Part shown: positions 33,491 through 64,000 of the stretch, one piece after another | Position numbering within the stretch: position 1 is the stretch's first letter | Layout of the letters: each line of letters begins with the position of its first letter | Assembly: GCF_009914755.1 (NCBI RefSeq) | Contig: NC_060931.1 | DNA from: the human T2T-CHM13v2.0 reference genome, Homo sapiens | DNA length: 64,000 bases | Reading direction: 5' to 3' (one strand) | The notes under the pieces: generated by a model | Seen by the model: only the letters and a program-made list of their open reading frames with translations | Told to the model about the DNA's origin: nothing | The model's database searches: none | Position numbers and translations under genes: made by a program

Positions 33491-33496
33491 TTTATT
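33491..33496 (-). terminator. Candidate polyadenylation signal AATAAA of the cadherin pseudogene
   Basis: AATAAA about 115 nt downstream of the terminal stop, with a second at 33324-33329. The context is AT-rich, so a chance match is possible. Confidence 0.45.
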
Positions 33497-33609
33497 GTTA
33501 AAAGCTGTGATTTTAAAAGACCTTTTCAAAGAAAGCAAGTGACATGAAGATATGGTGACCTTTATGCTGGTTAAAGTCAAGTGTCTTCCATTGGCATCAC
33601 ATTCTTTTC

Positions 33610-33671
33610 TTAATTGTTCAACATCTTGACTTCTCCTGTCTTACTGTCAAATAGTTATTGTATTCCTGTCA
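33610..33671 (-). pseudogene. Exon H coding part: VTGIQ*LFDSKTGEVKMLNN-stop
   Basis: Acceptor tttttgtttttttcttcag, phase 1. Matches CDHR3-type 'VTGxxYxFNSKTG'. Premature TAA (33655-33657) at the Tyr position; terminal TAA at 33610-33612. Confidence 0.88.
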
Positions 33672-34489
33672 CTGAAGAAAAAAACAAAAATTTTTCTAAG
33701 TTATAAAATTTATTAAAACTTAAATATTTATGAAAAGTTGTTAACATGCTTAAAATATTTTAAAACTGTCTTAAAATTTAAATATTTAAAGTTAAATATT
33801 TTTATAAATATAAATTATTTATAAATTAATATAATTAATTATATTAAATTAAAATATTTATAAAATATTTATAACAACTTGAATGTCTGTTAAATATTAG
33901 ACATATAAAGTTCACAAATAAAAAGTAACAAATTAAAATATTTCATAATGCTAATATTTTGGGCAGATAACTTTTATACTTAATTATTAAGTATAAAAGC
34001 AGTATATATGCTTCAAAGAAACCTGATTATGATAAAAACCAGAATCAATCTTTGGCACCACTTTAATCAATAATTAACAATATCACAAATTCTTTATAAT
34101 ATATGAACAAGGAGAGAGGGTGCTTATCACTCTACTCTACTAATGAATTTTCTTGACTCTCCTTCAAGAAATCTGACAAAGTTACCCTGTGCTCTTGAAG
34201 GCATAGCTTACTATTATTTTTTTTTTAGAAACTCTCCTCTCTACTGTCAGTAGCATCTGCTGACTCCATCTCCCAAAACCTTGCAGAATTTTCTCATTCA
34301 AAGATTAGGAAAGAGGTGAAATCTTCAAGATGATGCAAAGCATACACATAGTAGGTGCACATATATGTACACCCAAACAATGTGATGAATCATTAAAAAT
34401 AGCCTAATCCCCGTTCACTCATTCATTCAACATATAGTTATTGAGGACATTCAACATACACAACAATCTCTGAGTAGTTGGGATTTCAA

Positions 34490-34690
34490 AGCTCTGGAGC
34501 CGAACTACTGGAATTTGAATTGTCTCTATATTTACCATCCAGGTAACCTCATTCAAGTTACTAGACTTTGCTCTGTCTCACATCCTTACATGCAAAATGG
34601 TACTGGTAAATATATTACTTATCTCCTAGGATGGAAGTGATCATTAAATGAGTTTATGCATATGCCTGGCAAGTTAAATTTGCTCAATAG
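34490..34690 (+). mobile_element. MIR
   Basis: gctctggagcc..ttgaa...caagttact...catccttacatgcaaaatgg...attaaatgag core. Confidence 0.7.
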
Positions 34691-36927
34691 TTGAGAAATG
34701 TTTGTCAACTTCTGATAGAAGAGAAGCAAAGAACTTGTGTATAGTGCCTCTTGGGTATAATGCAATATGAAAATATATTAATGTAGGAATGGAATTGACA
34801 TTTTGATAAATTTTCCGTGGCATACATGATGTTTCTCTAGGTTTGTTTGGTAGCATGTAATAATAGTAAGATGATATTTTTAATTATACATATTTATATT
34901 CAAAGTATACCATAAATAATAAGGAGCAGATATACTTTATGTGCTTTATTTTGTTTTATTTACATTTTATTTCTAAACTCAGCCAATGAAATGTTTCTCT
35001 TCATCTACATAACCAACTGTTTGATGTTTTACTTCAGCTATCTTTCCACTCAAGGAACAAACAACTCACTCTTCCTATTGGCTCCCTCACCCTCATCCTT
35101 ATCTATTAGCTCCTGCTTCACTTATTTTATCTGTACCTTTTAGAGTTCCTCTCACTTGTACCTTCTGATGGGTTCCACCTATGCCAATCATAAACCTATC
35201 ATCAGCACTTGAAAAAGAAGGACATTAAGAGAGTCAATCCCTCTGCATAGTGCAGTGTTTCTCAAGCCTGCTTGCATATTAGAGTCACCTGAGGGGAAAA
35301 TGGTCTTTTTAACACATCCCACCCCTAGTCAATAAATACTTCTGTTAGTAGTACACAGGCATCAGTATTTCTTAATAACACACATACATCCTATTTACAT
35401 ATGAGGAAACTGACGTTCAGACAGACTAAATGGATTCCCTATGACTGTGTAGAAATTAAAGGATGAGCTGTGACTCCAATTGAGCTCTATCTTATTCTCA
35501 AACACTAATTGTTACCTCTACATGTTTATGCCTAAAACAAACCTTATCTATTGTTTACTTCATCTATGGTTCCAGTAAAAGTTTCCCCTTAGCTTATTAT
35601 ACACACATGTGCACACACTCACACATGTACGTGTGAGAGATACCACATCTCTGCTCTACTCTAGAGCAAAAAATATTTTTATAACTATTGCTTAAAATTA
35701 TATTGTGTCATCCTGCACTCCCATATCTTCCTTCCCTTTTGCTAGAAACCCTCTGGAAAGGACAACTTACACCTGATTACTTATTTCCGTTAAGTCATTA
35801 ATCCCTTGTACCATGATATTTACCTTCTTAAAGGTTACTAGCAAGCTCTTAAATGGCAAATCCTCTCTTAAATAAACATACTTTGAGTGCCTAGTATTTG
35901 CTTTGCACTGGAGATAAACATTCAATTAATATCTCTTACTGTCTTCCAAGAAGTTTACAGTAAGAACGACAAAGAGGCCAATGATATTATATATGGCGAT
36001 AAGTGTTTGAGGAGTACAGTGGAGAGATGCCCATTCAAGTAAGCTTATAAAGGGGATGTGATGTCTGAGGTACCTTGCTTTGCAAGTAGAAGTTAGCTAT
36101 TTAAAGAAGAGTGAAAGAGGTCGGAAACGATATAAAGAGAATATGTGCAATAAAGTCCTATGCAAAAGAATAAAGGCATGGCATTGTGACAAGCTTTGTA
36201 AGCTACAAATCGTGCTATATTCCCAGGATTAATATATCTGGGATTGTATAGGTCTTAGGGATAATAAAGAACATGCTTGTTTTCATCAACTAAGAATTTG
36301 GAATTTGGGCAATGGGAAGTTGGCCCAACTATTTATTTTCTTAAAAACTGGAATATTACCTTCCTCCTCATGGTTTCATGAGTATTACATGTTAGTGTGC
36401 TTTTTGCTCACTGGCACTTAGTACCTACTCACACAGTGTGGCTCATAAATATTTTGTGTCATTATACAGTGGCAGTGTAGGCACTATTTGAAGCTTTTTA
36501 AGAAAATGTGGAACAGAAACCCTGAGGTCAATTAGGAGCCTACTGCCGTGGCAGGCAAAAGTGATTAATTAAGGCTATTCAAGTGGTAATGGAGATTAAT
36601 GGGAGATAACAGAATGCAGTTAAATCTACTTAAGAGGGGGTTTGTGAACTTTCAGAATATAGTTTCAAGGAAAATATTTCAAGAATTTATGAATTATTGT
36701 GATTAAGAAAAATTAAATAGTGGATTTTTGAATAGTAGAACAACTTATTAGACTTTTAAACAAAAGTATTTATAATTCCTTTAATTAGGCATCTTTCATT
36801 AACTAAAACTGAACAATACATTAATTAATCACACCATAATTCTTCTCTCAGCATGGTGAAACTTTTTCCACACTTTGGAAATACTTTTTTAGACATAAGA
36901 ACATTGATATTATAATGTGCTTCTTAC

Positions 36928-36964
36928 CAGGGTCAATTCTGCATCCATCATGAACTATTCATGG
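36928..36964 (-). pseudogene. Exon G (37 nt): P*IVHDGCRIDP
   Basis: Acceptor tatttcctctag, donor CTG|gtaaga. Matches the CDHR3-type 'FDGxAIDP' segment. In-frame TGA at 36959-36961; phase 0 to phase 1. Confidence 0.82.
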
Positions 36965-39042
36965 CTAGAGGAAATACTTTACAATTATTATTCCATTTTA
37001 AATTTGTATTCCTATATAGAGAGGCTGACATTATCAATGACCTTATAATTCCTAATAGGATTACCACTTTGATATTCACAGGCTCACTATACTAGAATTA
37101 TTTACAAAACAAGAAATCTGACAACTGAATCAAATGATTGTCTTGTTTACTCCTATTACTCATGTTTTAAGTAAATACACTTACAACATAGAGGATGCTT
37201 CCTTATAGTTTCATAGCAATTTACTTGTTGATATTAAAGCTTTACCCAGGCCATATCCAAGACACTCGTCACTATTATACCATGTCTCCAGGGCAGCTAA
37301 GAAACATGTGCACTGTTACATTTTTATTGGCTCCATAACAATAGATTTAGAGAAATCAGGCTTGGGCCACATCTCTCCTAAATTGTAGGTCATTGCAGAT
37401 ATGGATAAGGTCATTTCAATGAAATGTTGGAGCATAACCCCCTTTGGAGTGAGTTGAATAGATATTAGAAGGCAAAACAAATTGTATATAGCTAGTCTAG
37501 AAAACTCTTTTAAAGGGTATTTACTATGAAAATAACAGAAATGGGTTGGTTGCTGAAGGAAGGAAGGGGGTAGAGAAGGTATTTTGAAAGTAGAATATTT
37601 TAAGTCATGTCAGACAATGTGAATAATCCAGTAGAGAGAGTAGAATTTTCCATGAGAAGACCAGAGAGATGGGTGTCCAAAGCATAACCGGAGAGAACAA
37701 CCTTAGAAAGGAGCAAGGAGTCTTCTGGAATGAGAAAGGTCAGGCTTTGTAGTACTGATGCAGACATGTTTGTAGAGTTGGTTTTAGGAGTCAGGGAGAG
37801 TTTGTGAAGCCAATTGTGTCTTTTTTGTTTAGGAAATGTGAGGAGATACCACAGATAAGAGTGAGAAGAGATGGAAGCATTAGAAAACTGTGATACTGTT
37901 TTTACTGTAAGGGGTAAAGTGAATTTATGAAGGACCTAAGGTTAGGTGTGTCTGTATTGAGCTGCCATTTGAAGGAATGGTCATCAATCCGAAATGAGTT
38001 CAGAGGGCATACTATGTTATTTTCAACAGGAACACACTGCTGCTTAGGTGCAGTCATAGAGCAGACTGCACCTAGTTGGATTTCATCACGATTGAGATTT
38101 TTTTCCTTAAGTTTTAAGGAGGCTGTTGGGACAAAGGAGTTAAGAGTTTGCAAAGACAGTAATTGTGCTGGACAATGGAATCCAAACCATATAAGAAAAG
38201 TGACACATGAAAGAAGTAATGGATAAAGAAAAAGTAATAGGGTCATCAGCTTAGACCCTTAAATAAGCATATAAATATTTTGGATTAAGTTGGGTAATGA
38301 TCAGAGAATGGGCTCCTTTGTAATCTAGATTTTTTTGACAGTGTTGCAATTACTGATGATGACAAAGTCTTGAGTGAGACCATGAGAATGGATGTTTGGA
38401 ACAGGGAGAAGGACCAAAGAGTAGGAAGAAAGGAGTTAAAAGAACTGATCAGCCATTATATTGGTTGGTCGTTTTTGTGGAGTTTCAACATGCCAAAAAA
38501 ACATGCCAGGAAAAGTAGTAGCGAAAAAACCCTGTGAACCAGAAATTAAAGTCATTGATGATTTTGAGGATAACAGTGATAGCAATTAATGGCTGTTAAA
38601 ATCTGATGATAGATACCTCAAAAGGCAGCAATTTGTGAAGGAAGAAAGAGACATATTCCGGAAGAGGATGAAATGGGGAATAAGTAAGTCACTTATTCCA
38701 TCTTTAAACTCTATGATATTGGGATGTGTATGCAAGTATGAACACCTCCACAGCAGTGTTCTTCAAGGTAAAAAAATCATTAGTGCAGGAGGTGAAAGGA
38801 ATAGTATGGTGGGAAACACATATACAAGCATATGTATGTACATATATATGTATGTGCATAATGTATATTAATATGGTGCGATAAATGCAATTATGAAGCA
38901 TGTATGGGTTTCTCTAGATATATCTAACTTGGTCCAGGTGTGAGATTGGAGAGGGTGGCAGTATAGATATCTGAATTTAGTTCCAAAATATGACAACGGC
39001 AAAGAAGGAGAGACAGCTGGGTGAGGTGAAAGGGAAGCTTGC

Positions 39043-39116
39043 TTGTAAAAAGTCTGGGAGTTTGTACACGGTGCTTAATGCCAGGACTGTGAAACCTCTT
39101 TCCCACTGTTCTCCAT
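39043..39116 (-). pseudogene. Exon F (74 nt): cytoplasmic exon, probable 1-nt deletion, GC donor
   Basis: Acceptor tgtctttttctag. Reads MENSGKEVS/VLALSTVYKLPDFLQ, then CAA|gcaagc. A length of 75 nt would keep phase 0 to phase 0. Confidence 0.55.
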
Positions 39117-40070
39117 CTAGAAAAAGACATATATTCTTCATGTGACCCTCCATACTAATTCTCCAAGTTTCCTCTGACTGGTTTAGCTCACTTGTTGTTC
39201 TCTGAATTCCTACAGGGTGTATTACATGCTGGCATGCACAGTTATCAGGAATTAATAAACTACCACACATAATTCCCTACAATATTTTTCATATCTTTTC
39301 ACAACTAAAATATCAGTTCTTGAAGAGTGAAGACCATATTTTGTACTTCTCTAAATTTCTTAAGTAATCCATAGATAACTCTGTAGAGCTCTACAGTTGT
39401 GTTGCATAAATACCTGTTGAATTAACCTTATAGATCAAATTGGGTACAAATTATTTTGATATTAACTGGAAAATATTTTACCAACACAAAGACATTGAGT
39501 CAAATATAATTTTATGTAAAAACTAATTCTGTAATTGAGCAAAACTATGTGGTTTGGGGTTAATTCAAAAGAAATATATGTTAAATGAATGTTTCAGTGA
39601 GAGAAATCCCATAAGACAATTTGGCATACAGTCAATATTTGTTAAATATCTGAGTGTTATAAGGATGAATGGGCATCATAGGTATCCTTAGCTACACCTC
39701 TACTAGATTATCTATGTAATTTAATTTCACCTAATATTTTTCAGACTTCAATAGGGAGAAATACAGAACAATAGAAAATTGAATGCCATCTCACTAATAT
39801 ACACCATCAATTGAGTCTCCTACTGATATATCAACATTACTATATTATTTCCCCCATCACTGATGTCACCAATGTCAATCACTTAAAATTGAATTCGCTC
39901 TTTCTTTCTTAATTTCCACCTCAACAGAAATGTCTAAATTCTCTCATTTTTGTTTAAGAGTTACCATTCAGTATGACATATTTGCAAGTGCTTGTTTATT
40001 GTCTGGACACTATGAAAAATAAGAGTAGCTATTGTAATAGCTATGACATGTTTTTTCTCTTTGTCCTTAC

Positions 40071-40134
40071 CTGATGATTTCCAGGCAGCAAGTTTGGTCT
40101 CATGTTTGGTTTGGGATCACTACTCAATAAGTTT
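40071..40134 (-). pseudogene. Exon E (64 nt): cytoplasmic exon
   Basis: Acceptor ttttttttatgggcatag, donor CAG|gtaagg. Open from a phase-2 entry (R-NLLSSDPKPNMRPNLLPGNHQ) with a phase-0 exit; a phase-0 entry hits TAG. Confidence 0.68.
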
Positions 40135-40744
40135 CTATGCCCATAAAAAAAATTAAGACATACTGGAAGTATTTATTTTATCCTTTAATACAAATAATAT
40201 ATTTTAGTGCTTTTCTGCATAAATCCTAAATAATTTAACAGTTTAGATTTTTTATAAAGAAGTAGGTAAGCAAATACTACATAATGCTATATTTAAATAG
40301 CCCTTACATTAACTGTTGATAAACTTCTATATATAATAAATCAATCATTTTGTGTTCTTAGGTTCAAAATTAATAATTCCAGTTAATATCTTTTCTAGAT
40401 AGAGATAATGGATCTTGATGCTGCTCTGAGTAATAAATTTATATATTTCATCTTAGATTCTTGAAAAACAAACTGTATTTGTTCTAATTTCTGTGGCATT
40501 TATCACCCCTAATCATTATATAAATAACTTCACTTGAAAATAGTAACAACCTTGTAGAATTGGCAGAATACCAGTAGCAGATCCCAGTGTTCATCTATAA
40601 ATCTGATTTTGCTCTCTGCTATTTCCCCATGCCTAGAAGAATATTATGTAGTCAATAGATATTGTTGAATGAACATAGAGTCATTTTTGAAAATTCCTCT
40701 GTTAAAGAATTTAGGAGCAAAATTTAAACTTCTAAAATGCTAAT

Positions 40745-41101
40745 TGCTGTGATCTGAATGTCTGTGTGCCCTATAATTGATATGTTTAAATTGACCCCTA
40801 AGGTAATGACATTAGGAACTGGGGCTGTTTGAGAGATACGTCATGAGGGCAGAGCCCCTGTGAATGGAATTAGTGTCCCTTACAAAAGAGGTCCCTGAGA
40901 AACCTCTCACCCCTTCAGCATGTGAGGTTGTAGTGAGAAGGCTCTGTCTAAGAGGAAGCGGGCCCTCACCAGACACCAGATCTGCTCCTACCTTGACGTT
41001 GGACTTCCCAGCCTCTGGAACCGTAAAAAATAAATGTTTTCTGCTTATAAACCACCTATCTTATGGTATTTTTGTTATGGCAGCCAGAATGGACTAAGGT
41101 A
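40745..41101 (+). mobile_element. MLT1A0-like MaLR solo LTR
   Basis: tcatgagggcagagccc...ttggacttcccagcctc...ttgttatggcagcc..gactaag. Confidence 0.88.
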
Positions 41102-41205
41102 CCAACCACTATTTTGTGGTTCTCTATGTGAAAATTAATAAAGCATTAAGGAACTCATCTTACTGCCTAAAATTTCTTTCTTTAAAGCATCGACTCTGCT
41201 TTTAC

Positions 41206-41299
41206 CTTGGTACCAGTCCAGGCCCTTTGGTCGTGAGACTTGGTTGGCTCTGGTGATGTTTGTGACACTGGGGAAATAATCTTGAAAAAAATGGGAGAA
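41206..41299 (-). pseudogene. Exon D (94 nt): juxtamembrane cytoplasmic exon, probable +1 slip in a T7 run
   Basis: Strong acceptor ttttttgttcttttactgtag, donor AAG|gtaaaa. Removing one T gives DSPIFSRLFPQCHKHHQSQPSLTTKGPGLVP and a phase-2 exit that matches exon E. Confidence 0.72.
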
Positions 41300-43063
41300 C
41301 TACAGTAAAAGAACAAAAAACAGGGGTGCAGTATGTTTGAAAAAAGAAACTGAATGCTTATTTTCTGATCAAAATTGTCAAAATTTATCAAAATCAACTC
41401 CCTGCTTTGATCTTAATCAAATAGCCTTAAACTTCTAGTTAACCGTCCACATGTAAAAAATAAAACAGTTGCACATAATGCCAATAATAATTTATTTTGA
41501 ATGTGAAAGTAAAAATGTCCTTAAACTATTTTAATAAAATCCAATAAGAAAATATCAGCTCCTCAGAAAAAAATATTTCAGATTACTCTGCCGTTTCTAC
41601 ATTCAGAAAAAAACCTATGAACATGGTAGATGACACTGGAATATCTCAGGAGAAGTTTCTAGTGTAATAGATTCCATTCTAGTGGAATATCTGGGGAGAA
41701 GTTTCTAGATACACTATGGTAGCACTATTATTCTGCAATATTCTTCTTGTCTATTGCACATCCACAGATCTCCTTCCATGATACATCTGAACAAGATTTC
41801 ATTCAGGAGTTAGTTACAGGGAAAAGGAGGAAATGGGTGCAACACTTACTTTTAAACCTACTTATTACACTTTAATTCACTATATTTTTGGACAAATGGT
41901 TCCTTTTTAAAATTAAATAATAAATTGCTTATTTATTCAGACACTTGATATCACCATTATAAATCCAAATATTGTGCTAAGGTATATATCACCTTCAAAA
42001 CAAAAATTCAAATTTACTATACTATTTCCATTTTACATAAAAGTGGCAGCTTCTCAGTTGTCCTTAATACATTTTTACTTTCATGCTAATACAACTATTA
42101 TCTTTAGGTTTTATTACTTTACCTTGCAGAATCTATACTCCATATTCCGGGATAAAAGCCAGACTTTTGTTGGTGAGGAAATATAGTAGTGTTCATATAA
42201 TCCTGTTTCCATTTTTATGCCTCTCAAAAAAAAAATCACCCTTAAATATAAACTAAATTATATTTTATGTATTTCCTTTATATTTTCTTCCATTCATTCT
42301 TCTACTGCCAGTTTCAGTGGCGTGTTCTCTGTGAAACATTCCCTGCCCAATCTCTCTGAGCCAGAGTTAAGTATGCCATAGAAAGATATTTAAATTTCAA
42401 TTACCCTGTCTTTTTACTCTCTCTTCTAATCTATTGTAACCATTCATTCTCCTGAACCCTTTCTAGTCAAGGCTGTGCTCCTGGAGGGTGAGTACTTCTT
42501 GTTAGCATTTCTGTATTCTGCTCACCTGGCACAATCTTATCCCTGAAAGCTCAGGAGACATTTCCTGAATTAATTCACTCCTTCTATAATTACTATTGAA
42601 ATTTTTTCATCTTACCTTTTTGAGACTTCTGTCTATCCTTTGACAGGAAAATATAGGCAGAGGACTTGATCTTATTTAAATATGTACCAACTAAATTTCA
42701 TCTCTTCCTTTTCTATGGGAATATTAAAAATCTCATTTCTTTCTTTTTTTTTTTCAGACGAATGGTTTTAGCTTGAATCATTTGATTGATCACTTAGCAA
42801 AAGAACATTAGCTTTAGAACCAGAAGATCTTGGTTAAAATCATTTATCTAAATCAAAAACACTGATGCTGTTACCTATCTCTCACCATTGTTGTGATTAT
42901 CAGCACGGATAACATCAGTAAAGCACTTCTTAAAGTAATAGCTGCTCAATGACATTTTCTCCAATCTCTTCTTTCTACTTTCATCCTGCTCTTTTTAAGG
43001 CATCGTTGATGGACTTTATGAGCCATGAACAAATTCAAATAGAAACAGCAATTAAAATCTTAC

Positions 43064-43188
43064 TCTTTGAAGAGGCACCATGCAATAGTATAGAGGCACA
43101 TCACAAAAAGAGCTCCTGTTAATAATGCAGGAATCCAGTTATCAGGGATCCAATAATATGAAATCTTTATTAATACAGAAGTAGTAAT
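43064..43188 (-). pseudogene. Exon C (125 nt): transmembrane exon
   Basis: Acceptor tatatttctcag, donor AGA|gtaaga. Reads ITTSVLIKISYYWIPDNWIPALLTGALFVMCLYTIAWCLFK, phase 0 to phase 2. The W-x-P-x-x-W before the hydrophobic stretch resembles CDHR3/4. Confidence 0.88.
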
Positions 43189-43931
43189 CTGAGAAATATA
43201 ATAAATATGAAGTATTAATAGCAGTACAATGGACAAAACTATAAAGACGTATATGCTGTGTAGAATATCTTGCATATTTCACTCTATTTCTTCTCTTTGA
43301 ATAATTAAAAACAAATACAGCAAATTACAAGACAAAATAACTAACATCTCTTAATGTCACAAAAAACAAACATCATTGTTTTTTAGAAACAAATGTCTGT
43401 TTATAATATTTCTTCTGGCCAGAATTCTTTCTCCTGTCTTGCCTTGTTGGTGAACATTTGTTCATTATAATGGTTATCCTCTACCATTGCTCTTGCAAGA
43501 AGCCTGACTTTGGGGTAGAAATTACCATACCCACGCCCTCTTTTCTTATATTTCTACTGTAACATCTAGAATACCTTGCCACATTTACTTCTTTTGTGAT
43601 TCTTCCTACTAGGAAATAAACTCCTATTAAACAGAACCATTCCTTGCTCATCTTTGTGGATTCTCTGTAGTTCTTGGCACAGAAGACAATAATTAGTGTT
43701 GGCTCAACGACAGATAGAATGAATCAGCAAGTTTTTAATAGGGCAAAGCATTATTTCAAAAATGGGTCAGACCATTGTAGCCCTTTCCTGCTTCCTATCA
43801 TAAAAGCACAAAAAGTTTTTTACCCAAGTAATTTTCCATTACTATCTAATGTGTGACCATTTAAGAAGCTAGCAATACAAAGTTCAACACAGATTTTAAT
43901 GTAAAGTCCATGACCAAGCAACATTACCTTC

Positions 43932-43947
43932 CCAGCAGATGGCAGCA
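43932..43947 (+). promoter_or_regulatory. Candidate CTCF motif
   Basis: CCAGCAGATGGCAGCA fits the CTCF core. Confidence 0.5.
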
Positions 43948-43993
43948 TAAGATAGGATAAGTTTTGTGAACACTCAAGTACTAGGTGTCTTTT

Positions 43994-44591
<598 letters not shown>

Positions 44592-45520: not shown

Positions 45521-45610
45521 CCACTAAGTGGCAGAATTGGTATTCAGATAAAAATTCATGTATCTCCACTAAGTGGCAGAATTGGTATCCAGATAAAAAT
45601 TCATGTATCT
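45521..45610. repeat. 45-bp tandem duplication (1 mismatch)
   Basis: ccactaagtggcagaattggtatYcagataaaaattcatgtatct x2. Confidence 0.95.
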
Positions 45611-50714: not shown

Positions 50715-50918
50715 CAATAATATGCTGGTAAACCAACTCTTAAAATGTAAAACAAAACCAAAAACCTGGTATGTAGTATTTGCCAATTTTTGTGACATAA
50801 ATATTCCCATCATTACCTATTTCAAGCTACCAAATGCTTAGCAACAAGACTACAAAATTTCTGCATGCTTAACAATAGGCTCTCTCAGCTGGGATAAGCC
50901 AGCTCCAGCATACTACTG
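50715..50918. mobile_element. hAT DNA transposon remnant (MER63-like)
   Basis: Termini resembling ..atgctggta / ccagcatactactg. Confidence 0.5.
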
Positions 50919-51653
50919 TTCCAAATTATCAGCTGAAAACAAAGTGCCAAGAGTATTTGGTTGTAAATTATCTTATGAGGTATATGTAGTAAGGGTTTGG
51001 TGTTTGATGAGTCAAATCAGCCTTGGAAAAGTAATGTGCCTGTGCAACGAGCACAATAGAAGAAAAAACATATAAGGTTACAAAGATATAAGTCTCTGGT
51101 GTGTCTAAGCAGCCATAATATCCTCAGGATTCATCTTTAATGTCCAAATTAAGTGAAAAGCACTAAAAATTCCAGTTTTGTCACTGTACGCAGCTCTTAA
51201 ACTTTTTTTAGTTCTTCACTGATGGTTTAAAACCTTTTCATTACTGATTTGCATCATGAAATATGAATGGTTGAAATAATGAAAAGATTGGACAGAGTTA
51301 TTTATAGACCTTCTCCTTCCTAGTCTTCTGCTTATACACTGTTTATGTTGAAATCAGAGTAAAAAAACATAGTTATAAACTTTGATGATTTAAATATACC
51401 TTTCTTTCATTTTGTCAAAGTGGACATTAGTTCTGGAATTTTTATTACGGGCTCAATTTGCTACATAAAGATAGTTTCAGGAATTTTGATTCATAATTCC
51501 TTGGGGATCACATTTGCAGGAAATAGTGTCTAGCCAGTTACCTCATTGTCTCTTTAGCCAATCTGGACTCAAATTGGAAGAGTTTAATTCAGTTCATGAA
51601 ACATGGCTTAATGTCTTCTCTACCTGCCCTGAGAGAGACCTTTGAATAATCAC

Positions 51654-51725
51654 GTATAGGTTCAAAGACTAAGGTTAATCAGGAGACAGGTATGGGTTCA
51701 AAGACTAAGGTTAATCAGGAGACAA
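51654..51725. repeat. 36-bp tandem duplication
   Basis: gtatRggttcaaagactaaggttaatcaggagacaR x2. Confidence 0.93.
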
Positions 51726-53304
51726 TATACAACAGTTTTGTTTATTTTGTTTAATTTAGGGTTGGGCTTATTTATCATCAGCTTTTTTAACTAAGTTTTT
51801 CTACATTTAAGATAAAAGGATTTCTTTCTATTCTCCTTCCTAGGTTTCAAGGTATTATTTTATTTATTCTAATGTCTACTAGTGCATGCCAAATATTGAC
51901 ATATTTAAGGAATATATTATGTAAAACTTTCCCTGTAGCTATGTGTTAGTGACTTTTACTATATACTAATAGAAACATATTTTGCTCATGAAAACATTTT
52001 TTTTTAACAAATTCAAAAGCACTGATAAACTCTTGTTTTCAGTCAGTGTTTTGCAACCTGGATTCCATGGATGGGTTTTACAGGCTCTAAAATTGAATAT
52101 AAAATTCATACATGTACACACATGTAATATGTATGTGTTGTTCTAGAGAGAGGAGCCATAAGCTTTCATCAGATTTTAACACAGTTCATGAACCTCCCCT
52201 CCTCCCAATTATGAACTATCACATACCTTTCTGATAACATATGACATTGGTCTTTGATTTATCAAGTACCATATTTGGCATTGTAAAATGTGCAATGATC
52301 TTTATTGAACGCTTTCAGTAGATACAGTTTATGGGATGCTCTAATTTTTTTCTAAAGAAAGTAGAATGAAGTTTTCCTTAAAAAATCTGCATTTATAGTG
52401 AATTTCATGCTGAAGTTGTCTCCCGTAATATTTGTAGTGTAATTGAATTTGTTCTTAATTACTTTGAACTTTTTATCATTAGGCCTTTTTTTCCCTCTAA
52501 AATTCATAGACATTGCTAGCAATCTGGCTTTAAGAATGTTCTATTTCTGAAATAGACTTTTATAGTTATATTTTAGAAGCAGATAAAATTCTAGCAGTAT
52601 ATTCTAACCACTCAGAAATGTTTTTAAGTTTTCATATCTCATCCAATATTCTAAATAGAAAGATCTGCTTTGTATTAATAATAATAAAATATACAGTCTA
52701 TAATAATAATGGCTAGGTCCTAACAGAAATTCTCTTTCCCATGATATATCATAATACATATATTCTAATGCACACATTTTAAATAAAATAGATGGTGAAT
52801 TCTATTAATTATGTATATTTTTGATGGAGCAGTTCATCTTCACATAAAGTACTATTGCCTTGGTTTGGAGCCTAAGTCTTTCATCTGGATTATTAAAACA
52901 AGCTCCTAACTCGTTTTGTGAGCACTTTATCTCCATCCACCAATCTTCCTTTCATATTTTCATATTTTTACATCTTTATTCTAAAATCATTCATACTTAG
53001 AAATAGCTGATACTGTCACCCTCTCTTGTAATCTTTCTTTAGATCCTCTCTGATTGGAAGACAAAGTCCATCTTCCTTAGGATGTTGTACAGGTATCTTC
53101 AAATTTATGCTGTAATAATCCTCCACTTTCTGAACATGAATGTTTATTATTTAAACCAGTTACAGTTGGATATTCCACCATTTATAGTAAGAAGGATTTT
53201 CTCTGACTTTCTTAACTTTGTTCGCCAACACCAAGCACAAGGTTTGACCATACAGTTGGGAAATAGTCAGATAGTTGGAAATACAGGTGACCTTTATAAC
53301 ATAC

Positions 53305-55625
53305 TGATATGGTTTGGCTGTGTCCCCTCTCAAATATCAACTTAATATGTTTTGTATCTCCCAGAATTCCCACATGTTGTGGGAGGGACCCGGGGGAGGT
53401 AATTGAATCATGGGGGCTGATCTTTTCTGTGCTATTCTCCTGATAGTGAATAAGTCTCACGAAACCTGTTGGGTTTATCAAGGGTTTCCACTTTTGCTTC
53501 TTCCTCGTTTTCTCTTGCCACTGCCATGCAAGAAGTGGACTTTCATGACTCTGAGGCCATGACTCTGAGGCCTCCCCAGCCATGCGGAACTGTAAGTCCA
53601 ATTAAAACCCTTTGTCTTCCCAGTTTCGGGTATGTCTTTATCAGCAGCGTGGAAATGGACTAATAGAGTAAATTGGTACCACTAGAGTAGGGCATTGCTG
53701 ATAAATACCCGAAAATGTGGAAGCGACTTTGGAAGTGGGTAACAGGGCAGCAGTTGGAACAGTTTGGAGGGCTCAGAAGAAGACAGGTAAATGTGGGAAG
53801 GTTTGGAACTTCATAGAGACTTGTTGAATGGCTTTGCCGAAAATGCTGATAGTGATATGGACAATAAGGTCCAGGCTGAGGTAGTCTCAGATGGAGATGA
53901 GAAACTTGTTGGGAACTGGAGTAAAGATGACCCTTGTTACGTTTTAGCAAAGAGACTGGCGTCATTTTATCCCTGCCCTAGCAATTTGTGGAACTTTGAA
54001 CTTGAGAAAGATGATTTAGGGTATCTGGAGGAAGAATTTTCTAAGCAGAAAAGCATCCAAGGGGTGACTTGGGTACTGTTAAAGGCATTCAGTTTTATAG
54101 GAGAAGCAGAGCATAAAAGTTTGGAAAATTTGCAGCCTGACTATGCCATGGAAAAGAAAATCCCATTTTCTGGGGAGAGATTCAAGCCAGCTGCAGAAAT
54201 TTGCATAAGTAGCAAGGAGCCTAATGTTAACCTCCAAGACGGGGGGTGGGGGTGGGGGGTGGTGGGGGGGTGTGGAAAATGGCTCCAGGCCATGTCGGAG
54301 ACCTTCAGGCCAGCCCCTCCCATCACAGGCCCAGAGGCCCAGGAAGAAAACGTGGTTTTGTGGGCTGTGCCAAGGGATCCCGTACTGTGTGCAGCCCAGG
54401 GATTTGGTGCCCTGTGTGCCAGCTGCTACAGCGTGGTGGAAAGGGGCCGACATACAGCTCGGACTGTGGCTTCAGTGGGTGGAAGCCCCAAGTCTTGGCA
54501 GCTTCCACGTGTTGTTGAGCCTGCGGGTACACAGAAGTCAAGAACTGAGGTTTGAGAACCCCCGCCTAGATTTCAGATGTGTGGAAATGCCTGGATGTCT
54601 AGGCAAAAGTTTGCTGCAGAGGCAGGGCCCTCATGGAGAACCTCTGCTAGGGCAGTGCAGAAGGGAAATGTGGGGTCAGAGCCCTCACACAGAGTGTCTG
54701 CTGGGGCACTGCCTAGTGGAGCTGTGAGAAGAGGGCCACCATCCTCCAGACCCCAGAATGTTAGATCCACAGACAGCTTGCACCGTGCACCTGGAAAAGG
54801 CACAGACACTTAATACCAGCCCACAAAAACAGCCACGAGGGAGGCTGTACCCTGCAAAATCACAGGGGTGGAGCTGCCAAAGACCATGAGAACCCATCTC
54901 TTGGATCAGTGTGACTTGGATGTGAGACCTGGAGTCAAAGGAGATCATTTTAAAGCTTTAAAATTTGACTGCCCCGCTGGATTTCAGACTTGGATAGGCC
55001 CTTTAACCCCTTTGTTTTGGCCAATTTCTCCCATGTGGAATGGCTGTATTTACCCAATACCTGTACCCCCATTATATCTAGGAAGTAACTAGCTTGCTTT
55101 TGATTTTACAGGCTCGTAGGCGGAAAGGGACTTGCTTTGTCTCAGATGAGACTTTGGACTATGAAATTTTGGGTTAATGCTGAAATGAGCTAAGACTTTA
55201 GGGGACAGTTGGGAAGGCATGATTGGTTTTAAAATGTGAGGAGATGAGATTTGGTGGGTCCAGGGGCGGAATGATATGGTTTGGCTCTGTTCCCACCCAA
55301 ATCTCAACTTGAATTGTATCTCCCAGAATTTCCACTTGTTGGGGGAGGAACCCAGGGGGAGGTAATTGAATCATGGGGGCTGGTCTTTCCTGTGCTATTC
55401 TCGTGATAGTGAATAAGTCTCACCAGATCTGATGGGTTTATCAGGGGCTTCCACTTTTGCTTCTTCCTCATTTTCTCTTGCTGCCAACACGTAAGAAGTG
55501 CTTTTCACCTCCCGCCATGATTCTGAGACCTCCACAGCCATGTGGAACTGTAAGTCCAATTAAACCTCTTTTTCTTCCCAGTCACGGGTATGTCTTTATC
55601 AGCAGCGTGAAAACAGACTAATACA
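53305..55625 (+). mobile_element. Complete THE1A MaLR element (LTR 53305-53667, internal 53668-55271, LTR 55272-55625)
   Basis: Two tgatatggtttggct...ctaata(c/g)a LTRs, gtaaattggtacc internal start, TSD catac/tgtac. ORF 53791-54555 is its gag-derived remnant. Confidence 0.96.
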
Positions 55626-58529
55626 TGTACCCAAATATAAATAATGGCTAGTCAACGCTGCATTTAACAAATGTTTAGAAATATTAGTTTTTTAAAGGCT
55701 ATCGTAAAATATATAGGTGTGTTTGTGTGTTTACTCACTCTCAAGCAAATGTAAGTGATAACCTATCTGCATATCATTTTCCCTTCTTACACAATGAATT
55801 AGTTGAAACACAGAATTTCTAAGGTTACTTCTGGTTTGGTTACACTTTTTGCACATATGTCTCCCTGCAGAGATGTGCGTATTATATTAGTACACATATA
55901 AATATAAAAGCTGATACTGGTTATGGAGAAAAGATGGACCATTTGCTACAGTCTTTGGTAATAAATTCATAAGTCACAGGTTGGTAATCATTTCAAGACA
56001 GTATTAATTGGTTTGCCTCTTTTAGCAAGCCTAATGTAGATTACTAAAGGAAGTATATAGATTAGAATACCCCTTAGCTCAACTACAAATTTTAGAATCC
56101 TTTCACATCTTGTTGCAAAATTTGTTTATCTATAATGTTTTATTACAATGTCTTCTGCTTTGCTAGATTTTGCTTTACTAATTGGGAAACTGAATGATGG
56201 AAATCCATGTGTTAACATAAATTAGGAACTTTTTTTTCCTCGATGATACAGGCTAAATATGATCTCTCCCAAAGGAGCAAGATCTATTATAGCAGAGAAA
56301 ATTGACTCAAAATTAAAGAGATGAGGTTCATGTTGAGCCAGAAATGAAAAACAACATTTTTTAACTGTTTGAAATTCTACGATAATACCTTACAATATCA
56401 CTGACAATATAACTTAGTCTTAGGCAATATTTACCTGACTTATCAAACAATTTTAATATATATTTGTGGAATATGAAAGAAAGTTATATTGTCATATGCC
56501 ATGGAGTGGGGAGCAGGACTCAGAAGCATTTTGCTGATGACCAGGAGAATATTCATGATTTAAATAATAAATTATAGAGTTTAACTATATAAAATGTATG
56601 ACTAAAAGCTCTAAAGCAGATAACACAGTTTTAGTGAAGCACTAAATAAGTGAGAATATTTTATCTGTGAGGGTAATTTGAGGAGCACTTTACCATATTA
56701 AATACTAATAGTTTTACAAAGTTCATGGGCATCTCAGATTATTTTCCTTTCAATTATTTTACAACTACTTTTTATGATACCTAACACATACACAAAAGTA
56801 TAAAAATATTACAATAATCCACCAGATAGCCATCATACAATACCAATAGTTGTCAATGTATACTGTTTTATTTAATCTTTATTCTTTCTTACTCCTCTCC
56901 ACCCCAAATTATTTTAATCCAAAGGTTAGACATCCTATCCTTTCATCCGTAAGAAGTTCTTAATTCTAAAGTATTCAATTTTCTAATTTTTTTTCTTATT
57001 CTAGTTTTGTGTTGTCTTATTTATGAAATCTTTCCCTATTACAAAATTAATAAGGTAGTCTCTTAAATTCTTTCTAAAGTATAGTTATTTTATTTATTAT
57101 TGCCATTTTATGTCTATAATGCATTTAGACTTGATTTATAGGGGATTGTTTCTACTATGTCTATATGCATATCAGTTGCCCAGTATAATTTCTTGAAACT
57201 CTCATCTTTTTACCATTGCTCTGTAGTTTCATTTTGACAAACATCATATGACCCCATGAACATTTACAAAATTGAATCATGTATCAGACTGTAAAGCAAT
57301 TCCCCATCTATTTCAGTTGATTGAAGTCACGAAGGTTATAATCTCTGATCCTAAATAATTATACTAAAAATTGAAACAGATAACTAGAAAATTCTCCATA
57401 TCTTTAGAAGTTAAGGGAACAGAGAATATTTTAGAATGAATGAATAAAAATACTATGAGATCCAGTCAAAGCCAAATTGAAAGCTTATATATTTGCCCCT
57501 AAATGTATTTTTTGCTGGGTATAGAATTCTAGGTGGAGTTATTTTCTTTCTGTTACTCAAACATTTCAATTTTTCTAGCTTCCATTATTTTTATTATAAA
57601 GTCAGCTGTCTTGTGAACACTCATTTGAAGGAAATCTTTCCTTTTTTTCCACAACTGATTTTAATATTTCTTGTTTTATTTGGATTTTATGTAGATTTTC
57701 TATGTTGTGTTTAAGTATAAATTTCTTTTCATTTTTTCCTCTAGGGAATCATAAGACTTCTTCAATTTACAGTTTGTTATCTTTAATCAATTTTGAAAAT
57801 ATTTAGACACTGCTTCTTTTCCTCTCCCTGTCTCATCTCTCAAGTTAAAATAAACCAGCTCTTCTCTTTCTCAATTTTATGTCCTCCCTCTCCGTTAGTA
57901 ATTCCCATCATTTTTGTCTTTCCATATCTCATTCTAGATAGTTTCTTCTGACATATCTTCAGTTCTTAATTGTCTCTTTGGCTGTTTCTAATCAGCCATT
58001 AAATCCATCTATCAAGTTGTAATTTGTTATTGTATTTTCAATTTCTAGATATATTTGAACTATTTTAACATATTCTATTACCGTTATAGTCTCCAACACC
58101 CTAACCAAATTTCAAACTTGGTTTACATTTCATGAGCTTAATAATAATTGAGTTTATGTTTGATAATCCATTACTTATAGCTACTGTGTTTCTGCTTTTT
58201 GTGGTTCTGTTACTTCTCAGTTGGTTATAGTATCTTATCTTCTTATGTGCCTGGCTATATTTAATCATGTGGTGTGTCAATTGGATTGAAAAATTATTAG
58301 ACTAATTGGAAGGCTAGAATACTGTTACTGTGTTACAGGGAAAATTTTAATTTGCTTCTTTGAGACACTTGGTAGAATGACCAGTCCTATACCACCCCAA
58401 TCAATTTTTTTCCCTGTGGATCAAGAATATTCAAATTTGTATTATACTGATTTTGTATAACTAAGGCAAAACTTCTTGACTATTAAGTCAACCAATGGGA
58501 AGGCTTTTCTGTAACTTTTTAAATAAATG

Positions 58530-58884
58530 TGTTATGGACTGAATGTTTGTGTTCCCTCAAAATTAACATGTTAAAATCCTCACCCCTCAATGTGATGGTA
58601 TCAGGAGGTGGGACATTTTTTAGGTGATTAGGTCATGAGGGTGGGTCCCTCATGAATGACATTAGAGTCCTTATAAAAAAGACCCCAGAGAGCTGTCTAT
58701 CCCTCTTTCCACGGTGTGGGAACATAGTGAGAAGATAGCCATCTATTAACCAGAAAAAATACTAAATGTGCTGATACCTTAACATGGGGCTTCCCAGCGT
58801 CCAGAACCATGAGAAATATGTGTCTGTTGTTTATACCACCTAGTCTATGGCATTTTTTAAAAGCAGTTTGAACTGACTCAGCCA
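58530..58884 (+). mobile_element. MLT1A-like MaLR solo LTR
   Basis: tgttatggactgaatgtttgtgttccctcaaaatt...ggtcatgagggtggg...ccacctagtctatgg. Confidence 0.88.
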
Positions 58885-59309
58885 AAGTGTATATCTTGTC
58901 TTCCCGTCAGACTGCATATTTTTCAAAAAAACAAGCTTGTTAAATATTTTATGAGCTCAATATGGTGTTATTTACATTAAAAACCTTTATAAGTTCTAAT
59001 TTAAATCAAGAAAAGTATACTGTGATGAGAATCAACAGAATTACTAATAATTCTGAACTAAATCTTGAAAGGGCCCATAAAAATGATTAACATTGATATA
59101 TTTACTTTGATTCAAAATTAATGCTTAATGGCTTCAATAATTTCTCCTTACACTGATGATGAGAATCCAAATGTATTAAAATAACTGTTTTATTGATGTC
59201 TTTCATTGCCAAAACACAAGGTTAACTCCTGTGAGAGTTTCCAGGCACTTTCTATGTTTATGACTAATTCAGATGACTTTAGAATTATATTTCATCACTA
59301 AGTACTTAC

Positions 59310-59561
59310 TGTAGTTGTAGTTGTTTTTGTGGAAGAAGTTGGCTGTGTTGTGGTCCAGGGAAGGACATGAATTATGACTGTTGTAGTGGCTGACAGCTGA
59401 CTAGGCTTATCCCACCTAATTCATCAGTGACTTCAATAAGTAGCTGGAAAGTCATAGGGCTCTGAACCCCTTGAAATACCTCATACTGGAAATTTTGTGT
59501 GACGGCCAGAAAGGAGGATTAACACCTAGTCTCCTAAGTGTGAATTGATTATTTGTATTTC
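59310..59561 (-). pseudogene. Exon B (252 nt): rest of the last cadherin repeat plus Thr/Ser-rich stalk, two 1-nt deletions
   Basis: Acceptor ctaatcattctcag, donor ACA|gtaagt. Reads GNTNNQFTLRRLGVNPP / LAVTQNFQYEVFQGVQSPMTFQLLIEVTDELGG / KPSQLSATTTVIIHVLPWTTTQPTSSTKTTTT. Frameshifts near 59511 and 59411; restoring 2 nt gives a phase-0 exit. Confidence 0.92.
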
Positions 59562-59740
59562 CTGAGAATGATTAGGTAATAAAAAGGAAATAAAATTACA
59601 TTATGTATTGTGATTTCGACTGTCTTACATTTTTATTTTAAAATATGTTTCATAATATATTTCCAATGGTTACAAAATATCTCACATGAGTATTTTGTAA
59701 AATAGCAGAGAAATAACATTTTTGAAATTATATGACTTAC

Positions 59741-59879
59741 CTCCTACAATTGAATAGCTCAGATGTTCCTGTGGAGAATCTTTGCTAAACAGTTGAGCTG
59801 AATGAAAGGACTCAACAGTGGAATAAATTTGAGTTTCCAAATGTGGTGGATTGCATACAGGAGGCTCATCATTCATATT
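59741..59879 (-). pseudogene. Exon A (139 nt): N-terminal part of the membrane-proximal cadherin repeat
   Basis: Acceptor tttttgttttatag, donor GAG|gtaagt. Reads NMNDEPPVCNPPHLETQIYSTV...KDSPQEHLSYSIVG (xNDxxP cadherin linker), phase 0 to phase 1. Confidence 0.92.
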
Positions 59880-61723: not shown

Positions 61724-62054
<331 letters not shown>

Positions 62055-63773: not shown

Positions 63774-64000
63774 GAATCCATATCTTTAATGAGGAATCAA
63801 CAAGCCTAAAGAGAGTAAGCATTATTAAAAAGGATAAAGTAGAAGGACAATATCCTTAGTGAGTATAATAATATTCGTTATCCAGAAATTGTCAAAAGAC
63901 TTTCAAAAATATTTATATGATTATTTATGGCTTTTATTTATTGGTGGCTTCCAAGTTCATCTCTTGACCTAATTTTCTAGACCTGTAATTTTTCAACAAT

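What the first reader, a model, noticed from the sequence alone, without database searches (positions are those of the whole stretch)
33491..59879. Fossil multi-exon CDHR3/CDHR4-like cadherin gene hidden among repeats on the minus strand
Seen in sequence: eight exons (59879-59741, 59561-59310, 43188-43064, 41299-41206, 40134-40071, 39116-39043, 36964-36928, 33671-33610) with polypyrimidine-AG acceptors and GT donors (one GC). Introns are 179 bp, 16.1 kb, 1.8, 1.1, 1.0, 2.1 and 3.3 kb. After repairing lesions the peptide is NMNDEPPVCNPPHLETQIYSTVExPFIQLNCLDKDSPQEHLSYSIVG|GNTNNQFTLRRLGVNPPxLAVTQNFQYEVFQGVQSPMTFQLLIEVTDELGGxKPSQLSATTTVIIHVLPWTTTQPTSSTKTTTT|ITTSVLIKISYYWIPDNWIPALLTGALFVMCLYTIAWCLFK|DSPIFSRLFPQCHKHHQSQPSLTTKGPGLVP|RNLLSSDPKPNMRPNLLPGNHQ|MENSGKEVSxVLALSTVYKLPDFLQ|P*IVHDGCRIDP|VTGIQ*LFDSKTGEVKMLNN*. 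Established: this domain order and these motifs are characteristic of CDHR3/CDHR4, and CDHR3 is the ciliated-epithelium receptor for rhinovirus C. Inference: the sequence is too divergent to be CDHR3 or CDHR4 itself and it retains introns, so it is a separate paralog lost in this lineage (unitary pseudogene). Candidates are the poorly studied CDHR17P/CDHR18P, which I recall have intact mouse orthologs.
Basis: partly seen in the sequence, partly recalled or inferred. Interest (0 to 1): 0.92.

Follow-up and report, generated by a model that had tools for sequence, protein, structure and literature searches.

The report
Dead human cadherin gene (CDHR17-type)
The window holds the last seven exons of a broken human copy of an old vertebrate cadherin-related gene (mouse Cdhr17/Gm28710) that is still intact in rodents, rabbit, bats and pangolin, and its remains are currently labelled only as two non-coding RNA genes.

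Summary
The finding is real and mostly read correctly. All eight claimed segments sit at the stated coordinates with AG acceptors and GT (one GC) donors. Seven (A, B, C, D, E, G, H) match intact ~950-1050-aa cadherin-related proteins of other vertebrates in order, strand and frame. Exon F has no support. The orthologues are named 'Cadherin related family member 17' and 'Gm28710', so this is the human counterpart of mouse Cdhr17, not CDHR3 or CDHR4. Sixteen further exons lie upstream of the window. Together they cover 994 of 1027 positions of the pangolin protein at 76.7% identity. The human copy has no start codon, at least four premature stops and at least six frameshifts, and it keeps its introns. 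No other human locus exceeds 39% identity, so it is a unitary pseudogene. RefSeq lncRNA LOC105369146 uses exon A's acceptor exactly. Both neighbouring lncRNA spans end inside fossil exons. No searched paper mentions CDHR17, CDHR17P or Gm28710. Whether an HGNC symbol CDHR17P already marks this locus could not be checked. This is an ordinary kind of feature, of moderate interest.

The parts
59741..59879 (-). Fossil exon A (about exon 17 of 23). It starts at the linker between the 7th and 8th cadherin repeats (motif NMNDEPP) and holds the first half of the last repeat. Two deletions (-2 and -1 nt, 13 codons apart) scramble a conserved stretch but restore the frame.
   Evidence: AG/GT sites and frames. 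19 of 22 candidate proteins matched at 66-74% identity, E 9e-13 to 7e-8. tblastn 6 of 6 orthologues.
59854..59879 (-). Last exon of RefSeq lncRNA LOC105369146 (NR_136264.1). It begins exactly at exon A's acceptor, so the old splice site is still used.
   Evidence: Annotation table supplied with the finding; acceptor position.
59310..59561 (-). Fossil exon B: second half of the last cadherin repeat plus a Ser/Thr-rich stalk. Two separate 1-nt deletions, net -2, so the reading frame is lost.
   Evidence: Three collinear tblastn pieces in three frames, 6 of 6 orthologues, E to 1e-33. Frames.
43064..43188 (-). Fossil exon C: transmembrane helix and start of the cytoplasmic tail (..AWCLFK). The frame is open, but there is a 6-nt in-frame deletion inside the helix relative to all orthologues that cover it.
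   Evidence: tblastn 5 of 6 orthologues, E 2e-12 to 2e-21, each with a 2-residue gap. Also P0029 and P0036.
41206..41299 (-). Fossil exon D: cytoplasmic tail (..SRLFPQCHKHH..). It is 94 nt where the phases require 93, because of a +1 insertion in a T run near its start.
   Evidence: frame f1 changes to f2. tblastn E 5e-4 to 2e-11.
40071..40134 (-). Fossil exon E: cytoplasmic tail (..PKPNMRPNLLPGNHQ). Bat, pangolin and squirrel models start six bases further 5' (40140), where human reads GG instead of AG.
   Evidence: tblastn E 9e-5 to 3e-9 and 5e-6.
39043..39116 (-).
   Evidence: 0 of 6 and 0 of 7 orthologues match. Local alignment score 30 is reached by 40 of 400 random chunks. Its 74 nt would break the E-to-G phase.
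36928..36964 (-). Fossil exon G: 12 codons of the conserved tail motif (..V[YH]DG.AIDP). TGA at codon 2.
   Evidence: Best of 127,996 positions with the bat segment (31 vs 25), fourth with the marsupial one, not in the top four with the crocodile one. Weak tblastn hit to P0036, E 5.4. Its place and phase fit between E and H.
33610..33671 (-). Fossil exon H: last coding exon (VTG..LF.S.TGEVKML.. then TAA). Premature TAA at codon 6. In the other frame, used by the mouse and rabbit models (exon D spliced to H), there are TGA and TAA stops, and the likeness to rabbit runs on to 33473.
   Evidence: Top of 127,996 positions for 3 of 3 segments. tblastn E 0.007-0.30 in 4 of 7. Rabbit alternative frame E 3e-14, window 33673-33473.
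61034..61117 (-). Counterpart of the non-cadherin first exon of the macaque and titi-monkey partial models. It is open in human, 27 of 28 residues identical to macaque, and lies in the 44-kb intron upstream of exon A.
   Evidence: tblastn of P0001, E 3e-12. P0002 sequence.

Best explanation
Window 33610-59879 (minus strand) is the 3' part of a unitary pseudogene. It is the human remnant of the vertebrate gene called Cdhr17 (Gm28710) in mouse, and lies at 7q21.11 between SEMA3C and HGF.

The ancestral product, inferred from the orthologues, was a type-I membrane protein of about 1000 aa. It had a signal peptide and eight cadherin repeats; Pfam scores six or seven of them, and I counted eight DxND-type linkers by eye. 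These were followed by a Ser/Thr-rich stalk, one transmembrane helix and a cytoplasmic tail of about 90 aa ending in a conserved motif (..YDGRAIDP VTG..YLFNS.TGE..).

The whole human gene is traceable as about 23 exons over about 118 kb (window-equivalent 151749 down to 33610), but it cannot encode the protein:
- No ATG at the orthologous start.
- Stops in exons 1, 11, G and H.
- Frameshifts in exon 12, A (two), B (two) and D.
- A 2-codon deletion in the membrane helix.

It keeps its introns, and no intact copy exists elsewhere in the genome. The locus is still transcribed. RefSeq lncRNA LOC105369146 ends in exon A at the ancestral acceptor, and its 5' end falls in fossil exon 14. The 3' end of LOC100128317 falls in fossil exon 9.

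Shown here: the exons, the lesions, the orthology by reciprocal best match and by tree, and the cadherin nature of the orthologues. Inferred: the ancestral function (calcium-dependent cell-surface adhesion), the timing of the loss, and that the two lncRNAs are simply leftover transcripts.
For: -: exon A matches 19 cadherin-domain proteins of mammals at 66-74% identity.
- full-length orthologues occur from sharks, frogs and crocodilians to marsupials, rodents, rabbit, bats and pangolin. Names include 'Cadherin related family member 17', 'Gm28710' and mouse LOC102640594 precursor.
- exons A-E match in order and frame.
- exons G and H match the canonical tail of bats, marsupials and crocodile.
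- 16 upstream exons are collinear on the same strand at 60-89% identity.
- 994 of 1027 pangolin positions are covered, 762 of them identical. In a quick ML tree, human joins macaque (SH-aLRT 97) and then mouse lemur (86) inside a species-like topology.
- of 82 and 117 human matches, only the two at this locus exceed 39% identity (70-79% and 67-71%).
- lesions and splice sites.
- 7, 6 and 7 Pfam cadherin repeats in three orthologues.
- human gene order CD36, SEMA3C, LOC100128317, HGF.
- The lncRNA coordinates come from the annotation table supplied with the finding.
Against: - Pfam found nothing in 5 of 5 single human ORF pieces, even at E up to 10. PDB phmmer found nothing with the exon A piece. 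The cadherin call therefore rests on the orthologues.
- Exon G alone is not significant.
- Exon F fails.
- Synteny with mouse Cdhr17 was not tested.
- The whole-genome searches used a stricter first look and scored only 45 of 250 and 71 of 380 candidates. An intact second copy is unlikely but not formally excluded.
- Most upstream exons are open and well preserved, so the loss may be fairly recent. Lesions were read from one assembly only.
Confidence: 0.93

Rival explanations
1. The locus is now a working non-coding RNA gene, or pair of genes, that has taken over the dead gene's promoters and splice sites. On this view the cadherin remnant is only its raw material.
For: RefSeq lists two lncRNAs here. 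NR_136264.1 is a BestRefSeq record, and its last exon starts at exon A's acceptor (annotation table). Macaque and titi models also start from a new first exon equivalent to 61117-61034.
Against: Transcription of a decaying gene is common and needs no function. Nothing tested here shows constraint on the RNA. Fossil exons carry stops and indels as expected of drift.
Confidence: 0.12
2. It is the human counterpart of Cdhr18 (CDHR18P) rather than Cdhr17.
For: CDHR18P and Cdhr18 exist as symbols in two papers.
Against: The orthologues found with these exons carry the names 'Cadherin related family member 17' and 'Gm28710'. None is named 18.
Confidence: 0.03
3. It is a duplicated or processed copy of CDHR3 or CDHR4, and not a separate gene.
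For: NCBI's automatic names for many orthologues read 'CDHR3-like' or 'CDHR4-like'. The chr3 locus shares the exon A|B boundary.
Against: Introns are retained (179 bp to 44 kb). Identity to the chr3 locus is only 30-41%, against 66-89% to the Cdhr17 family. The family goes back to sharks. The tree follows the species tree.
Confidence: 0.01
4. It is a still-functional human protein-coding gene that annotation has missed.
For: Many exons are open. 11 of the 16 upstream exons show no lesion.
Against: There is no start codon, at least four stops and at least six frameshifts spread over exons 1, 11, 12, A, B, D, G and H.
Confidence: 0.01

Closest known systems
Mouse Cdhr17 (Gm28710, LOC102640594) and its vertebrate orthologues
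   Same: Reciprocal best match. Exons are collinear over 994 of 1027 positions at 76.7% identity to the pangolin protein. The linker motifs, Ser/Thr stalk, membrane helix and tail motifs are the same. The tree follows the species tree.
   Different: The human copy is broken: start lost, at least four stops, at least six frameshifts. The mouse protein (962 aa, RefSeq 'precursor') is intact. Mouse and rabbit models splice exon D straight to H in another frame. No paper in the searched library describes the gene.
CDHR4 (human chr3 locus C3:49.82 Mb; identity with CDHR4 rests on my recalled map position)
   Same: It is the best human paralogue of exon A. Likeness is collinear over four consecutive exons, with the same ..YSIVGG| exon border and a Thr/Ser-rich stretch before the membrane helix.
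   Different: Only 30-41% identity, E 2e-10 at best. It is a separate gene on another chromosome. I recall CDHR4 having fewer cadherin repeats; this was not tested.
CDHR3 (rhinovirus C receptor)
   Same: It is a cadherin-related type-I membrane protein, and NCBI's automatic names call several orthologues 'CDHR3-like'.
   Different: No direct comparison could be made here. No CDHR3 chain was among the 60 best PDB matches shown, of 88 at E up to 1e-10. Nothing links this locus to virus entry.
Human unitary pseudogenes in general (recalled examples: GULOP, UOX)
   Same: A single-copy gene that is intact in other mammals, is broken in place with its introns kept, and is still transcribed.
   Different: The parent here is a little-studied adhesion-type gene of unknown function. 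RefSeq labels the remains as two lncRNA genes rather than as a pseudogene.

Membership tests
Cadherin superfamily | Extracellular cadherin repeats recognised by Pfam PF00028 | tested here: not met
   For the human pieces alone, 0 of 5 ORF pieces of exons A-C hit any Pfam family at E up to 10. The pieces are 39-65 aa long and are broken by frameshifts.
Cadherin superfamily | Close relatives carry tandem PF00028 repeats, and the locus aligns to those repeats | tested here: met
   Orthologues P0020, P0029 and P0049 have 7, 6 and 7 PF00028 stretches, E 5e-87 to 5.5e-75. Human exons align to them at 60-89% identity. Exon A opens with the linker NMNDEPP.
Cdhr17 / Gm28710 orthologous group | Reciprocal best match | tested here: met
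   Human to others: 19 hits, all of this family. Others to human: the only matches above 39% identity are at this chr7 locus. Names.
Cdhr17 / Gm28710 orthologous group | Gene tree places the human sequence with its closest species relatives | tested here: met
   A quick IQ-TREE of 24 rows (23 chosen from about 75 orthologues, plus human) gives human+macaque 97 and +Microcebus 86, with marsupials, crocodile, frog and shark outside. The careful search did not finish.
Cdhr17 / Gm28710 orthologous group | Conserved synteny (between Sema3c and Hgf in mouse) | not testable with these tools
   The human side is shown (and the annotation table). No mammalian genome other than the window's own is held. 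The mouse position is only recalled.
Unitary pseudogene | Several independent disabling lesions | tested here: met
   No ATG and a TAA in exon 1. Stop in exon 11 and frameshift in exon 12. Frameshifts in A (two), B (two) and D; stops in G and H.
Unitary pseudogene | Introns retained at the ancestral exon borders (not a retrocopy) | tested here: met
   Every matched block is flanked by AG and GT in the window. Introns run from 179 bp to about 44 kb. The A|B border is shared with the chr3 paralogue. Orthologue gene structures themselves were not available.
Unitary pseudogene | No functional copy elsewhere in the same genome | tested here: met
   all other human matches are at 23-39% identity (protocadherins, FAT, CELSR and the like). 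Caveat: a stricter first look was used, and only 45 of 250 and 71 of 380 candidates were scored.
Unitary pseudogene | Intact orthologue in other species | tested here: met
   dozens of 900-1090-aa models, including mouse (962 aa, 'precursor'), rat, rabbit, squirrels, bats and pangolin.
CDHR3 or CDHR4 proper | Orthologue-level identity to those genes | tested here: not met
   The chr3 locus gives 30-41% identity. CDHR3 itself was not compared.

The most novel reading that the evidence does not exclude
An ancient vertebrate cadherin, present from sharks to rodents, with eight repeats, a mucin-like stalk and an undescribed conserved cytoplasmic end motif, has been lost independently in several mammal lines. 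Candidates are anthropoid primates and perhaps baleen whales, sirenians and ruminants, whose models are flagged LOW QUALITY or are fragmentary. In humans its carcass is misfiled as two lncRNA genes that serve as nearest-gene labels in GWAS and linkage tables for eye pressure, glioma, tumour markers and dyslexia. If so, the loss marks a tissue function that mice have and humans lack.
Probability: 0.4. Interest if true: 0.45.

Novelty: new member of a known kind. Interest (0 to 1): 0.35.

Why it matters
- **Annotation.** Two RefSeq 'uncharacterized lncRNA' genes, LOC105369146 and LOC100128317, appear to be collinear pieces of one dead cadherin gene. Papers use them as nearest-gene labels (passages seen in PMC7962394, and PMC8263547; six more papers seen only in the listing).
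- **Mouse-to-human transfer.** Mouse has an intact Cdhr17, so any mouse phenotype or expression marker for it has no human protein counterpart.
- **Gene-loss catalogues.** The patchy distribution makes it a candidate for studies of repeated loss.

It does not open a new kind of biology. Unitary pseudogenes are a well-known class, the gene family already has a name, and a symbol CDHR17P may already exist.

Tried and rejected
- **Pfam on five single human ORF pieces and PDB phmmer on the exon A piece.** Neither found anything; the pieces are too short and broken.
- This was a frame slip of mine, corrected.
- **A 200-kb fetch upstream.** Six stretches totalling about 58 kb were fetched instead, which sufficed to reach exon 1.
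- **Whole-genome searches with full orthologues.** Large protocadherin, FAT and CELSR exons swamped them. They did not even list exons A and B, so they cannot rank CDHR3 against CDHR4 as nearest paralogue.
- **PDB search with a bat orthologue.** It gave only generic cadherins (CELSR1 best, 3e-65). No solved structure of this family or of CDHR3/4 was among the 60 shown.
- **Exon F against the squirrel tail.** Not significant; 40 of 400 random chunks reach its score.
- **A weak protein hit at 14422-14205 (E 0.013).** It has no DNA likeness to exon B and is taken as chance.
- **P0133 (mouse 'cadherin-23-like isoform X2').** It looked like a possible paralogue but is a Cdhr17 isoform that skips exons A and B.
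- **Dating the loss from branch lengths.** From the primate node the path is 0.20 for human and 0.13 for mouse lemur. Human-macaque identity over exons A-E is about 90%, counted by hand. Both suggest relaxed constraint but are too rough to date anything.
- **Literature.** No paper holds CDHR17, CDHR17P, Gm28710 or LOC102640594. No paper combines two of 'unitary pseudogene', 'cadherin-related' and '7q21.11'. Supplementary tables were not searched.

Full report

Reading the minus strand at the stated places shows all eight stretches with the stated borders. Every one follows an AG. A, B, C, D, E and G are followed by GT, F by GC, and H ends in TAA.

Exon A opens with the cadherin-linker-like motif NMNDEPP. 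On their own the human pieces are too short and broken for profile searches. Pfam gave nothing for 5 of 5 ORF pieces at E up to 10. PDB phmmer gave nothing for the exon A piece.

**2. What do the exons match?**

A word-indexed protein search with the 46 codons of exon A returned 19 proteins at E up to 1 among 22 candidates. All carried PF00028, at 66-74% identity and E 9e-13 to 7e-8. They came from macaque, titi monkey, mouse lemur, bats, pangolins, rabbit, squirrels and others, and were mostly auto-named 'cadherin-related family member 3-like' or '4-like'.

A second search with the squirrel protein listed the family's breadth: rodents, lagomorphs, bats, pangolins, elephant shrew, marsupials, crocodilians, many frogs and sharks. 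Telling names were 'Cadherin related family member 17' (Jaculus, UniRef), 'Gm28710' (Phodopus, Apodemus) and mouse 'uncharacterized protein LOC102640594 precursor', 962 aa. A third search added lizards, a newt, coelacanth and a reindeer fragment. Among anthropoid primates it found only the macaque (251 aa) and titi (175 aa) fragments. Three orthologues have 7, 6 and 7 Pfam cadherin repeats. By the DxND-type linkers I count eight repeats, so exons A and B encode the last one.

**3. Exon-by-exon test in the window**

tblastn of six orthologues against the window:

| Exon | Orthologues matching | E-value range |
|---|---|---|
| A | 6 of 6 | 2e-14 to 2e-19 |
| B | 6 of 6 | 2e-23 to 1e-33 |
| C | 5 of 6 | 2e-12 to 2e-21 |
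| D | 4 of 6 in frame | 5e-4 to 2e-11 |
| E | 3 of 6 | 9e-5 to 3e-9 |
| F | 0 of 6 | - |
| G | 0 of 6 | - |

- Exon B matches in three frame-shifted pieces.
- The mouse-lemur model lacks exon C.

A pattern for the whole G+H motif matched 8 stored proteins; one frog tail printed carries a more divergent form of it.

I also ran an ungapped scan of all 127,996 six-frame positions of the window.
- H was first for 3 of 3 query segments (66 vs 25, 63 vs 26, 49 vs 29).
- G was first for the bat segment (31 vs 25), fourth for the marsupial one, and outside the top four for the crocodile one.

G is therefore probable rather than proven. Its place between E and H, its AG/GT sites and its phase all fit: phase 0 in, one base carried over to H.

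Exon F has no support: 0 of 6 and 0 of 7 orthologues match. Its best alignment to the one squirrel tail that might correspond is reached by 40 of 400 random chunks. Its 74 nt would also break the E-to-G frame. So seven of the eight exons stand.

**4. Lesions in the window**

- Exon A: two deletions (-2 and -1 nt) 13 codons apart. The exon stays open but a conserved stretch is scrambled.
- Exon B: two single-base deletions, net -2.
- Exon C: open, but 6 nt shorter inside the membrane helix than every orthologue that covers it.
- Exon D: 94 nt where the phases need 93, from a +1 in a T run.
- Exon E: the acceptor implied by the bat, pangolin and squirrel models reads GG in human. An AG six bases downstream keeps the frame. 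This point is an inference.
- Exon G: TGA at codon 2.
- Exon H: TAA at codon 6. The alternative frame used by mouse and rabbit has TGA and TAA.

**5. The rest of the gene**

The window's own genome could be searched. A pangolin orthologue found two more exons upstream on the same strand, at 70% and 79% identity and without stops. Smaller fetches and tblastn then revealed 16 collinear exons. In window-equivalent coordinates they are:

- 151749-151543 (exon 1)
- 141885-141709
- 135133-135038
- 133038-132904
- 131052-130942
- 128501-128358
- 125964-125779
- 122571 to about 122479
- 120515-120396
- 119055-118939
- 118231-118088
- 114507-114333
- 112133-111969
- 105901-105788
- 105025 to about 104810
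- 104345-104196

A 44-kb intron then leads to exon A. No further cadherin exon lies in 59880-64000.

Lesions upstream are few. There is no ATG at the orthologous start and a TAA in exon 1. There is a stop in the exon at 118231-118088 and a frameshift in the exon at 114507-114333.

Threaded on the pangolin protein, human residues fill 994 of 1027 positions, and 762 are identical (76.7%).

**6. Orthology and uniqueness**

In the two whole-genome searches, the only human matches above 39% identity were at this locus (2 of 82 matches, 2 of 117). The rest were protocadherin, FAT and CELSR-type loci at 23-39%. Those searches scored only 45 of 250 and 71 of 380 candidates, so they set a floor.

I built a quick maximum-likelihood tree of 24 rows: 23 orthologues that I chose from about 75, plus the human read-through with X at stops. 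The careful search did not finish. Human joins macaque (SH-aLRT 97) and then mouse lemur (86), inside Euarchontoglires. Marsupials, crocodile, frog and shark are successive outgroups.

The best human paralogue of exon A is a chr3 locus (E 0.25). It shows collinear likeness to the orthologues over four exons (30-41%, E down to 2e-10) and shares the ..YSIVGG| border. From its recalled map position it should be CDHR4. Thus 'CDHR4-like' is fair, but membership in CDHR3 or CDHR4 is excluded.

The human locus lies between SEMA3C and HGF (and the annotation table). Mouse synteny could not be tested.

**7. Transcription**

The annotation supplied with the finding gives the last exon of lncRNA LOC105369146 as 59854-59879, so it starts at exon A's acceptor. 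Its span begins at 105895, inside the fossil exon at 105901-105788. The span of LOC100128317 ends at 120448, inside the fossil exon at 120515-120396. These three coincidences suggest that both 'lncRNAs' are transcripts of the dead gene. Their internal exons were not available to me.

The macaque and titi models start from a non-cadherin exon whose human counterpart (61117-61034) is open and 27 of 28 residues identical. Macaque's exons A-E are open.

**8. Mechanism**

The best-supported reading is a unitary pseudogene (confidence 0.93). The ancestral protein was most likely a calcium-dependent cell-surface adhesion molecule of the cadherin-related type. That is inferred from the domain make-up only, and no functional paper was found. 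The present-day locus yields spliced non-coding transcripts.

Rivals:
- An exapted functional lncRNA (0.12, and not exclusive of the main reading).
- CDHR18P instead of CDHR17P (0.03).
- A copy of CDHR3 or CDHR4 (0.01).
- A missed functional coding gene (0.01).

**9. Novelty**

The kind (unitary pseudogene) and the family (Cdhr17) are known. The searched literature holds no paper with CDHR17, CDHR17P, Gm28710 or LOC102640594. None combines two of 'unitary pseudogene', 'cadherin-related' and '7q21.11'. Only CDHR18P/Cdhr18 appear, in two papers: a passage seen in PMC13239798, and none within the held text of PMC12519442.

RefSeq's table for this window has no cadherin pseudogene. I therefore rate this 'new member of a known kind', with a real chance that curators already know it.

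Interest is moderate (0.35). It is a clean annotation correction and a human-mouse difference, not a surprise to a specialist.

Noticed in passing
window 33473-33673 (-): Exon H is read in two frames by different species' models. Bats, marsupials and crocodile use the frame ending ..TGEVKML.. . Mouse and rabbit models splice exon D directly to H in another frame. The rabbit-human likeness in that frame runs 67 residues (55%, E 3e-14), well past the first frame's stop. Both frames are broken in human.
   Followed up: partly
window 61034-61117 (-): This is the counterpart of the first exon of the macaque (P0001) and titi (P0002) partial models. It is open in human and 27 of 28 residues identical to macaque. 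It suggests a primate-specific internal promoter feeding truncated transcripts into exon A.
   Followed up: partly
proteins P0008, P0044, P0045, P0128: The humpback whale, dugong and manatee models are flagged LOW QUALITY PROTEIN, and the reindeer fragment has internal deletions. No carnivore, horse or other ungulate appeared among the 120 of 225 hits listed. The gene may be decaying independently in several mammal lines.
   Followed up: no
protein P0003 (Microcebus), P0133 (mouse isoform): The mouse-lemur model (714 aa) lacks the membrane-helix exon C and reads exon D in another frame. A mouse isoform skips exons A and B, which encode the last cadherin repeat. These are either alternative splicing or model errors.
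   Followed up: no
window 14205-14422 (-): There is a weak protein-level likeness to the exon B region of two orthologues (E 0.013 and 0.44). It has no DNA likeness to exon B, so it is most likely chance.
   Followed up: yes
orthologue tails: The cytoplasmic end motif ..YDGRAIDP-VTG..YLFNS.TGE.. is kept from frog and crocodile to bats and marsupials. It matched no Pfam family in the three orthologues scanned. It may be an undescribed short binding motif.
   Followed up: no
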